From the IMG/VR virus record IMGVR_UViG_3300025066_000029, positions 1 to 58,903 of that record: a DNA stretch of 58,903 nt. One strand, written 5' to 3'. The notes under the pieces are model-generated. The model was not told where the DNA came from and did not search any database. It saw only the letters and a program-made list of their open reading frames with translations. Each line of letters starts with the position of its first letter. Positions within the stretch are counted from its first letter, which is position 1. Both the position numbers and the translations under genes were made by a program. Below, piece after piece: positions 34,748 to 34,887 of the stretch. This stretch comes from a virus. Lineage: Duplodnaviria; Caudoviricetes.

Positions 34748-34887
34748 GGCGAGATAGCGCAATTGGTAGCGCACTTGTTCATCGTAAACTGATGTACTAT
34801 AACTGATCATTGTAGTAATAGGTTGACTTAGGGTTGATCTCCTAAGTGATGAAGAAGAGGTTGGGGGTTCGAGTCCCCTTCTTGTCT
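34748..34887 (+). ncRNA. tRNA-like RNA with a 64-nt structured insert replacing the anticodon loop
   Basis: Acceptor GGCGAGA/TCTTGTC; D arm GCGC-AATTGGTA-GCGC; variable loop AGGTT; T arm GGGGG-TTCGAGT-CCCCT; extended stem CTTGTTCATC/GATGAAGAAG. Confidence 0.8.

What the first reader, a model, noticed from the sequence alone, without database searches (positions are those of the whole stretch)
34748..34887. Natural tRNA-scaffolded RNA: intact tRNA body presenting two hairpins with GAU loops
Seen: canonical acceptor, D, variable and T arms, but the anticodon stem extends to 10 positions (34774-34783/34848-34857, one G-G mismatch) and opens into a 64-nt insert. The insert has hairpin TACTATAA-CTGATCA-TTGTAGTA (7-nt loop CU-GAU-CA, shaped like an Ile anticodon loop) and hairpin ACTTAGG-GTTGATCT-CCTAAGT; TGAT occurs four times. 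It is too short for a group I/II intron, has a full D stem and no tag frame (unlike tmRNA), and I could not restore a normal anticodon arm by removing a segment. It mirrors engineered tRNA-scaffold constructs. Inference: a stabilised decoy for anticodon nucleases or synthetases, or a tRNA-sensing-defence antagonist.
Basis: partly seen in the sequence, partly recalled or inferred. Interest (0 to 1): 0.86.

Follow-up and report, generated by a model that had tools for sequence, protein, structure and literature searches.

The report
Anticodon-less tRNA-shaped phage RNA family
This crAss-like marine phage encodes a tRNA-shaped RNA that has two hairpins with self-pairing tips in place of an anticodon loop and is fused to a second conserved folded RNA; it belongs to a widespread RNA family of unknown function that is absent from the Rfam RNA catalogue.

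Summary
Window 34748-34887 scores as a tRNA (Rfam 42.2 bits). The anticodon stem runs on as a 10-bp helix carrying two hairpins.

It is not a lone oddity. A conserved four-way-junction RNA lies directly 3' of it (34888-34975). A two-part motif from that RNA hits at least 119 IMG/VR stretches. My script found a tRNA-like body just upstream in 51 of 110 unique contexts, and 47 of the 51 are 101-190 nt long.

The CUGAUCA hairpin recurs with covarying stems. Hairpin loops across the family are enriched in palindromes of many different sequences. The loops are therefore self-complementary tips, not isoleucine anticodon mimics.

An intron reading is weak. The only clean excision product has a G-G mismatch, G37 and U73. 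I found no insert-less allele and no RNA ligase.

The 3' module also stands alone, with promoter and terminator, in Patescibacteria genomes.

Function is unknown. My best guess is a stable, non-decoding tRNA mimic that pairs with itself through kissing loops and is co-transcribed with, or cut from, the 3' module.

This scan had already noted the same family on other DNA. I found no RNA data, no paper and no cultured phage carrying it.

The parts
34748..34754 (+). acceptor stem, 5' strand (GGCGAGA)
   Evidence: Pairs with 34880-34886; Rfam tRNA match over positions 1-71; fold
34757..34772 (+). D arm (GCGC-AAUUGGUA-GCGC) with G18 G19
34774..34783 (+). 5' strand of the 10-bp closing helix (anticodon stem plus 5 further pairs); partner is 34848-34857; one G-G at 34777/34854
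   Evidence: relatives also have a long closing helix in their folds
34787..34824 (+). hairpin A arm: AACU/GGUU, an internal loop, an 8-bp stem 34795-34802/34810-34817, and the loop CUGAUCA at 34803-34809 (palindrome UGAUCA)
   Evidence: Fold. The same loop occurs on covarying stems in 11 distinct family members: 87.9% of cells paired against 49.6% in shuffles, 0 of 500 shuffles as high
34826..34847 (+). hairpin B: ACUUAGGG / loop UUGAUC (34834-34839, palindrome GAUC) / UCCUAAGU; it stacks directly on the closing helix
   Evidence: Fold. The same GGG-UUGAUC-UCC tip is seen in L208 and L206 and in L235
34848..34857 (+). 3' strand of the closing helix (GAUGAAGAAG)
34863..34879 (+). T arm (GGGGG-UUCGAGU-CCCCU)
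34880..34887 (+). acceptor stem 3' strand (UCUUGUC) plus discriminator U; no CCA is encoded and GC follows
   Evidence: the 'N73-GC' junction is conserved in the alignment
34888..34975 (+). fused 3' four-way-junction RNA. P1 34891-34896/34963-34968; GUAGG; P2 34900-34903/34908-34911; UGAACAACG; P3 34920-34925/34935-34940; ACAA; P4 34945-34949/34954-34958; GGAGA
   Evidence: Fold. A covariance model built from 27 other members matches 34880-34975 at 59.3 bits, E 3.2e-13. P1 and P2 show compensatory changes

Best explanation
The locus is one member of a widespread phage RNA family that is not in Rfam 15. It encodes a tRNA-shaped RNA that cannot decode.

Anatomy:
- The acceptor, D and T arms are ordinary.
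- The anticodon stem continues as a long helix that ends in two hairpins, and their loops carry self-complementary (palindromic) sequences.
- Two bases after the discriminator a conserved four-way-junction RNA begins.

Shown:
- The anatomy above.
- Membership of the family.
- Covariation of hairpin A and of P1/P2 of the 3' module.
- Enrichment of palindromic loops.
- One copy in the window.
- No sequence difference in the three public marine runs that cover it.

Inferred, with my odds:
- The precursor is handled like a tRNA, with RNase P making the 5' end (likely).
- A cut at the discriminator separates the tRNA-shaped RNA from the 3' module (about 0.35). Otherwise the two stay joined.
- The palindromic loops form symmetric kissing contacts between two or more copies (about 0.4).
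- The assembly engages a host factor that recognises tRNA shape, such as a processing, repair or defence protein (about 0.15 for any defence-decoy role).
For: The locus itself:
- tRNA shell: Rfam 42.2 bits.
- Structure beyond chance: z -3.0 and -3.3.

The family in viral contigs:
- Among 110 unique contexts my script finds a tRNA-like body just upstream in 51. Of these, 47 are 101-190 nt long and 4 are 68-75 nt.
- Rfam independently-, 124- and 146-nt tRNAs directly upstream of the motif in 3 of 11 short loci scanned.
- Model R1, built without the window, scores the window at 59.3 bits, E 3.2e-13. It matches 101 of the 119 motif-derived loci and never more than once per locus.
- RNAalifold on 30 members finds compensatory changes in 13 of 20 predicted pairs.

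The hairpins:
- Hairpin A: 11 distinct CUGAUCA hairpins; covariation score 1.018 against 0.273; 0 of 500 shuffles reach it, and all slid registers score lower.
- Palindromic loops: among 64 hairpins of 42 unique inserts, 25 carry a palindrome of 6 nt or more (shuffle mean 6.7, maximum 15 of 500). 40 carry one of 4 nt or more (mean 22.9, maximum 35). There are 11 different 6-mers.
- In 12 of the 13 members with two or more palindromic loops the palindromes differ. That fits pairing between copies better than pairing within one copy.

Population: contigs of 3 marine runs that cover the RNA, fully or in part, show no difference in 34748-34887.
Against: - I have no RNA data: none of the 24 runs listed is on record as RNA. 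Transcription, RNA ends, cleavage and dimerisation are all unobserved.
- The family was gathered with an exact motif. The invariance of P3 and its flanks is therefore by construction, and R1 partly re-finds its own seed.
- My tRNA-body finder is a crude script. It missed obvious cases and found nothing in 59 of 110 contexts, some of which are chance motif hits inside genes.
- The hairpins were taken from minimum-free-energy folds, which are sometimes wrong.
- No close ortholog of the window's own tRNA-shaped part was found. Support for the closing helix and for hairpin B is by analogy only.
- Kissing loops of 4-6 A/U-rich pairs are weak.
- No protein is conserved next to the RNA: the best neighbour family is present in only 11 of 47 loci.
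Confidence: 0.62

Rival explanations
1. It is an ordinary tRNA gene interrupted by a short protein-dependent intron of the 'enigmatic' kind reported in Lak megaphages. Removing 34780-34846 would give tRNA-Ile(GAU).
For: - Lak phage tRNAs carry unexplained introns, one of which is itself tRNA-like (PMC6784885, passages read).
- Another viral contig, L002, has a tRNA-Gln(UUG) with an insert of about 56 nt near position 37/38.
- Of 960 computed deletions, the one clean 73-nt class-I product has the loop UUGAUGA.
- The insert plus the helix is weakly tRNA-shaped: ARAGORN calls it only at 60% of its threshold or in mitochondrial mode.
Against: - That product has a G-G mismatch in the anticodon stem, G37 where ANN-reading tRNAs have A37 (my recall), and U73.
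- With 8 possible loop registers, a U33/R37 solution is expected by chance.
- Rfam sees no tRNA in the insert alone.
- Cuts placed 12 bp from the hairpin B loop, where RNase P and RNase Z would measure, leave no anticodon loop (my reasoning).
- No insert-less allele appears in the runs laid.
- No RNA ligase family matches in the window (PF09414, PF01139, PF09511). The window is only about 59% of the genome.
- The insert design, its palindromic loops and the fused 3' module recur on tRNA bodies with many different acceptor stems.
Confidence: 0.08
2. One reading: the GAU loops mimic the tRNA-Ile anticodon, and the RNA is a decoy for an anticodon nuclease, for IleRS, or for a tRNA-sensing defence system.
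For: - The loop CUGAUCA has U33-like and GAU positions.
- TGAT is enriched.
- A tRNA shell would recruit tRNA-binding proteins. Phage tRNA-based counter-defence is known (my recall, not looked up).
Against: - Family members replace GAU-bearing loops with unrelated palindromes (GAUAUC, ACUAGU, GUGCAC, GGUACC, GGCC and others).
- C37 breaks the Ile loop but completes the palindrome.
- Acceptor stems and discriminators vary across the family, so no single synthetase identity is kept.
- The arm is far too long to sit where an anticodon sits.
Confidence: 0.1
3. The tRNA-shaped part is mainly a processing handle ('tRNA punctuation'). RNase P and RNase Z cut it away to give the functional 3' four-way-junction RNA a defined 5' end, and the hairpins are secondary.
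For: - The 3' module exists on its own, with promoter-like and terminator-like flanks, in Patescibacteria genomes. There is one copy in each of the 4 genomes tested.
- In a few bacterial contigs (L260, L265) and in 4 of 51 viral contexts an ordinary-length tRNA precedes it.
- The junction N73-GC-P1 is fixed.
Against: - A plain tRNA would serve as a handle. Yet 47 of 51 detected bodies carry the elaborate insert, with covarying stems and palindromic loops. That argues the insert has a function of its own.
Confidence: 0.15
4. It is a decaying tRNA pseudogene hit by a small insertion, or a chance fold.
For: No ortholog of this exact body was found, and ARAGORN with default settings does not call it.
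Against: - Fold z-scores.
- No copy of the insert elsewhere in the window.
- Identical sequence in independent marine runs.
- Membership of a family with covariation.
Confidence: 0.03

Closest known systems
Phage T4 species 1 RNA (rnaC, 139 nt) and species 2 RNA (rnaD), stable RNAs at the end of the T4 tRNA cluster
   Same: A phage-encoded stable RNA of about 140 nt with a tRNA-type T arm (GGUUCGAAUCC) and paired ends, of unknown function, lying among tRNA genes (annotation and sequence seen).
   Different: - No R1 match in the T4 locus.
- No canonical D arm seen by eye.
- No fused four-way-junction module.
- I did not test its loops for palindromes.
This is a resemblance of kind only; homology is not shown.
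'Enigmatic' introns of Lak megaphage tRNAs (Devoto et al. 2019, PMC6784885)
   Same: Phage tRNA genes that are too long because of a non-ribozyme insert in the anticodon region. Hosts are Bacteroidota, as for crAss-like phages (passages read).
   Different: Lak inserts sit in tRNAs with assignable anticodons and have insert-less alleles. Here no convincing anticodon is restored, no insert-less allele was seen, and the insert design is conserved across unrelated tRNA bodies. The Lak supplementary table of intron sequences could not be seen.
Engineered tRNA scaffolds for expressing recombinant RNA (recalled, not looked up)
   Same: A foreign structured RNA replaces the anticodon loop on an extended anticodon stem, and the tRNA shell gives processing and stability.
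   Different: This one is natural, conserved, and carries a second RNA module at its 3' end.
tmRNA and bacterial Y RNA YrlA (tRNA mimics)
   Same: A tRNA-like acceptor and T-arm domain joined to a non-tRNA module. The same phage also encodes a tmRNA at about 39076-39401.
   Different: There is a full D stem, no tag reading frame and no G3:U70. The RNA ends lie at the acceptor stem, whereas in YrlA they lie at the Ro-binding stem (my recall). No Rfam match to either family at this locus.
ROOL, GOLLD and OLE, phage- or bacteria-associated ornate RNAs that self-assemble (PMC12286853, listing and abstract only)
   Same: Orphan non-coding RNAs, often phage-borne and near tRNAs, that form homo-oligomers. 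The paper's text mentions kissing contacts (term count in the listing).
   Different: Those RNAs are 500-800 nt and have no tRNA shell. Self-assembly of the present RNA is only inferred from the palindromic loops.
Theta (HDV-like) ribozymes trailing phage tRNAs (PMC10879173, passages read)
   Same: A small conserved RNA placed directly after a phage tRNA 3' end.
   Different: The 3' module here is a nested four-way junction, not a double pseudoknot. No Rfam ribozyme family matches it in the window. Self-cleavage is untested.

Membership tests
Canonical tRNA (Rfam RF00005) | Cloverleaf with acceptor, D and T arms and conserved elbow bases | tested here: met
   42.2 bits against a gathering score of 29, model positions 1-71
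Canonical tRNA (Rfam RF00005) | 5-bp anticodon stem closed by a 7-nt loop with U33 and a purine at 37 | tested here: not met
   The stem runs on for 10 positions into a 64-nt module; ARAGORN with default settings finds no tRNA
tRNA gene with intron (group I, archaeal bulge-helix-bulge, or Lak-type) | Ribozyme core or bulge-helix-bulge motif at the exon-intron junctions | tested here: not met
   No Rfam intron or ribozyme match at E up to 10. The helix is continuous with no 3-nt bulges. The host lineage is bacterial: this is a crAss-like phage
tRNA gene with intron (group I, archaeal bulge-helix-bulge, or Lak-type) | Excision restores a normal anticodon arm; insert-less alleles exist | tested here: inconclusive
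   One product, Ile(GAU), has a G-G mismatch, G37 and U73. No insert-less allele in the contigs of the 3 of 4 laid runs that cover the site. No relatives with the same body were found
tmRNA | No D stem, G3:U70, a tag reading frame and pseudoknots | tested here: not met
   Full D stem; position 3:70 is C-G; ARAGORN in tmRNA mode finds nothing here
Uncatalogued phage family: tRNA-shaped RNA plus 3' four-way-junction RNA | 3' module directly after N73-GC | tested here: met
   R1, built from 27 other members, scores 59.3 bits, E 3.2e-13 at 34880-34975; alignment
Uncatalogued phage family: tRNA-shaped RNA plus 3' four-way-junction RNA | Long closing helix with two hairpins whose loops are palindromic | tested here: met
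   UGAUCA and GAUC loops. Hairpin A aligns with 10 other CUGAUCA hairpins on covarying stems
Self-cleaving ribozyme (twister, hatchet, HDV-like) for the 3' module | Match to a known ribozyme consensus | tested here: not met
   No match in 34600-35050 at E up to 10. One unrelated locus, L189, carries the motif inside a weak twister-P1-like match of 24.8 bits. Catalysis cannot be tested with these tools
YrlA / bacterial Y RNA | Ro-binding stem formed by the RNA ends, with a tRNA-like distal domain | tested here: not met
   No Rfam match; the ends form the acceptor stem

The most novel reading that the evidence does not exclude
The RNA is a self-assembling tRNA mimic. Two palindromic kissing loops join copies into a symmetric dimer or a larger ring or chain. 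This presents several tRNA elbows, together with an sRNA module shared with Patescibacteria, to a host tRNA-handling or defence machine. It would be a new class of phage non-coding RNA acting on translation or immunity.
Probability: 0.25. Interest if true: 0.85.

Novelty: new variant of a known kind. Interest (0 to 1): 0.7.

Why it matters
Phages from several lineages, here a crAss-like marine phage, keep one copy of an elaborate RNA built on a tRNA shell. I found it in neither Rfam nor the searchable literature. Its conserved features are an intact tRNA elbow, self-complementary hairpin tips and a fused module that minimal-genome bacteria also carry. These point to a selected interaction with core cell machinery.

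It gives a concrete object for bench tests: about 230 nt, with clear mutational predictions for the loop palindromes. It also warns annotators that over-long phage 'tRNAs' are not all intron-bearing genes.

Tried and rejected
Searches for orthologs of the window's own tRNA body:
- Exact-pattern scans of IMG/VR gave only L002, an unrelated tRNA-Gln with an insert, and L032, which is two adjacent tRNAs.
- BLAST against GenBank phages found nothing beyond T-arm matches to ordinary tRNAs.
- Large-terminase (TerL) relatives: 6 loci, the best at 73% identity but only 5.5 kb long. They hold only ordinary tRNAs and no R1 match.
- Relatives of the downstream protein P0001: none in IMG/VR, 22 in the protein database, and 80 metagenome loci. 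None has the RNA beside it. L047 has a different 115-nt tRNA with an insert.

Other negative results:
- No copy of the insert elsewhere in the window.
- No RNA holder is listed among the 24 sequencing runs, so expression could not be examined.
- The contigs laid showed no variant and no joint in the RNA. X11 did not cover it.

Readings I rejected:
- Hammerhead, C/D-box or k-turn readings of CUGAUG/GUGAUGA: considered by eye and dropped, with no Rfam support.
- tRNA-shaped-intron design, a lead from earlier scan notes: rejected here because the measured cut sites leave no anticodon loop.
- 3' module as twister or HDV-like ribozyme: not supported.
- 3' module as SRP or 6S RNA of Patescibacteria: not supported. 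Those Rfam families gave no match at all in 4 genomes, which does not identify the module.

Further points:
- No neighbouring protein is shared beyond sub-lineages.
- Literature searches found no description of the family.

Full report
WHAT THE WINDOW IS. The window is an IMG/VR virus record of 58,903 bp that CheckV rates about 59% complete. Its capsid protein matches the Crassvirus major capsid family (PF23898, 1e-52). Portal, large terminase and family A DNA polymerase are also recognisable. It is therefore a crAss-like phage, and such phages infect Bacteroidota. Near-identical DNA occurs in marine metagenome runs: 24 runs are listed, none of them on record as RNA.

THE OBSERVATION. Rfam's tRNA model matches 34748-34887 from end to end at 42.2 bits (gathering score 29) and treats 78 nt of the anticodon region as an insertion. 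ARAGORN with default settings does not call it. With introns allowed it offers a strained tRNA-Arg(CCU) with a long variable arm.

The minimum-free-energy fold gives:
- the cloverleaf shell;
- a 10-position closing helix, 34774-34783 with 34848-34857, with one G-G;
- hairpin A, an 8-bp stem with the loop CUGAUCA, extended by AACU/GGUU;
- hairpin B, an 8-bp stem with the loop UUGAUC, stacked on the closing helix.

The z-score is -3.0 for the whole RNA and -3.3 for the arm alone. TGAT occurs 4 times where 0.6 is expected (P about 0.002).

IS IT AN INTRON? I removed every segment with 30 x 32 boundary choices in a script.
- The only clean 73-nt class-I product removes 34780-34846 and has the loop UUGAUGA, that is Ile(GAU). 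It keeps a G-G mismatch in the stem and has G37 and U73.
- With eight possible registers, such a solution is expected by chance.
- The insert plus helix is only faintly tRNA-shaped. ARAGORN calls it at 60% of its threshold or in mitochondrial mode, and Rfam finds nothing.
- Cuts measured 12 bp from the hairpin B loop, where RNase P and RNase Z would act, leave no anticodon loop.
- No RNA ligase family matches in the window. Contigs from the three runs that cover the site show no difference and no insert-less form.

Lak megaphage tRNA introns (PMC6784885) are the nearest published precedent for over-long phage tRNAs. They have assignable anticodons and insert-less alleles.

THE KEY LEAD. Laying the contigs showed that other marine viruses share the stretch just 3' of the tRNA-like RNA. 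That stretch, 34888-34975, folds as a four-way junction: P1, GUAGG, the P2 hairpin, UGAACAACG, P3 (AGGCGU/ACGCCU), ACAA, the P4 hairpin, GGAGA, then the 3' strand of P1.
- In the printed contexts a T arm and an acceptor 3' strand sit directly upstream in many cases.
- A simple script requires an acceptor stem of 6-7 pairs, U8, a D arm and a T arm. It finds such a body in 51 of 110 unique contexts. Of these, 47 are 101-190 nt long and only 4 are 68-75 nt (a stricter version gave 46, of which 43 were long).
- Rfam independently reports tRNA matches of 116, 124 and 146 nt immediately upstream of the motif in 3 of the 11 short loci I scanned.

MEMBERSHIP. I built a covariance model, R1, from 27 members without the window.
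- It matches window 34880-34975 at 59.3 bits, E 3.2e-13.
- It matches 101 of the 119 motif-derived loci and never more than once per locus.
- It matches nothing in the loci of the window's terminase relatives or in the T4 tRNA cluster.
- RNAalifold on 30 members supports the T arm, P1 and P2, with compensatory changes in 13 of 20 predicted pairs.
- P3 and its flanks are invariant only because I selected on them.

THE INSERT IS A SELECTED STRUCTURE.
- Folds of 42 unique inserts show the same plan: a long closing helix and usually two hairpins.
- Eleven distinct members, the window among them, carry the loop (C/U)UGAUCA on stems that covary. 87.9% of cells are paired against 49.6% in shuffles. 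The covariation score is 1.018 against 0.273, with 0 of 500 shuffles as high, and all slid registers score far lower.
- The tip of hairpin B, GGG-UUGAUC-UCC, recurs in L208, L206 and L235.
- Across the family, 25 of 64 hairpin loops hold a palindrome of 6 nt or more (shuffled loops: mean 6.7, maximum 15 of 500). 40 hold one of 4 nt or more (mean 22.9, maximum 35).
- Eleven different 6-mers occur: UGAUCA, GUAUAC, GAUAUC, GUGCAC, ACUAGU, UGUACA, CUCGAG, UCCGGA, ACGCGU, CAAUUG and GGUACC.
- In the window the palindrome in hairpin A is out of register with the stem, so it is not just a longer inverted repeat.
- In 12 of the 13 members with two or more palindromic loops the palindromes differ from each other. 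That fits symmetric pairing between copies better than pairing within one RNA. The window is the exception, since both of its loops share GAUC.

This removes the basis for reading the loops as isoleucine anticodon mimics.

THE 3' MODULE BEYOND PHAGES.
- The motif hits 41 stretches of GTDB genome contigs, and R1 confirms 31 of them.
- Several hits lie inside protein genes and are chance matches.
- Many others are in Patescibacteria, including a complete 579-kb chromosome. There the module stands alone between a sigma-70-like promoter and a hairpin followed by a run of U, next to unrelated genes.
- Four of 4 such genomes hold exactly one copy.
- In two bacterial contigs an ordinary-length tRNA precedes it.

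The module is therefore an autonomous RNA of unknown identity, and phages fuse it to the tRNA-shaped RNA. I could not identify it. Rfam has no match for it in the window, and searches for SRP and 6S RNA in those genomes returned nothing at all.

HOW IT MOST LIKELY WORKS.
Shown: the anatomy, family membership, covariation, the palindromic tips and a single copy.
Inferred:
- The shell makes the transcript a substrate for tRNA end-processing and gives it stability, as in engineered tRNA scaffolds (my recall).
- The fixed N73-GC-P1 junction suggests either a cut at the discriminator that frees both RNAs (about 0.35) or a rigid two-domain RNA.
- The palindromic tips suggest kissing-loop dimers or higher assemblies (about 0.4). 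The only precedent is the self-assembling phage-associated RNAs ROOL and GOLLD (PMC12286853, abstract only).
- A role as a decoy or sponge for a host factor that reads tRNA shape is possible but untested (about 0.15).

No protein partner is conserved nearby: the best neighbour family is present in 11 of 47 loci.

COMPARISON AND NOVELTY.
- The closest known thing in kind is T4 species 1 RNA: 139 nt, with a T arm, paired ends and unknown function. Homology is not shown.
- It is not a member of the tRNA-intron, tmRNA, YrlA or known ribozyme families by the tests listed under Membership tests.
- Six full-text searches found no description of it.
- No GenBank phage record carries it detectably by BLAST.
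- Earlier notes of this scan describe the same family on other DNA. I reached it independently through and tested the palindrome claim myself.

VERDICT. This is a real, widespread, uncatalogued phage non-coding RNA whose function remains open.

Noticed in passing
window 39076-39401 (+): Phage-encoded tmRNA. The acceptor stem GGGGCAU/AUGCUCC has G3:U70, the T arm is GGGGUUCGACUCCCC, and the tag reads AEAADAFVTQYAQAA-stop. ARAGORN finds it only at 80% of its threshold, and Rfam tmRNA gives only a partial 13-bit match. I did not look for smpB.
   Followed up: partly
window 39407-39478 (+): An irregular tRNA directly after the tmRNA. Rfam scores it 34 bits, but the anticodon loop is too short, and ARAGORN reports a 2-letter 'anticodon' tt.
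   Followed up: no
window 34888-34975 and loci L233-L273: The four-way-junction RNA fused to the tRNA-shaped RNA also occurs as a stand-alone, promoter-to-terminator small RNA in Patescibacteria genomes, with one copy in each of 4 genomes tested. Its identity is unknown. The Rfam SRP and 6S models found nothing at all in those 4 genomes.
   Followed up: partly
L002:6970-7103 (IMGVR_UViG_3300031603_000435): A fragment of a large phage with 15 tRNA matches holds a tRNA-Gln(UUG) carrying an insert of about 56 nt near position 37/38 and an encoded CCA. This is a different kind of over-long phage tRNA.
   Followed up: partly
L047:4889-5003: A 115-nt tRNA match (Rfam 40.1 bits) with an extended anticodon helix and a type-II-like D arm, in a metagenome contig that also encodes a P0001 relative.
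   Followed up: no
L189:164-238, 1071-1139, 1294-1362 (-): Three twister-P1-like elements, all below Rfam's gathering score (24.8, 55.1 and 51.6 bits), lie within 1.3 kb of one viral contig. The weakest one holds the AACGAGGCGU...ACGCCUACAA hairpin as an inserted stem.
   Followed up: no
window 35014-35364 (+): The small protein P0001 just downstream belongs to a large uncharacterised family with the motifs NxCYGGF and EYDG. It has no Pfam domain in the precomputed column of the homolog search. More than 461 relatives were confirmed in metagenome contigs.
   Followed up: partly
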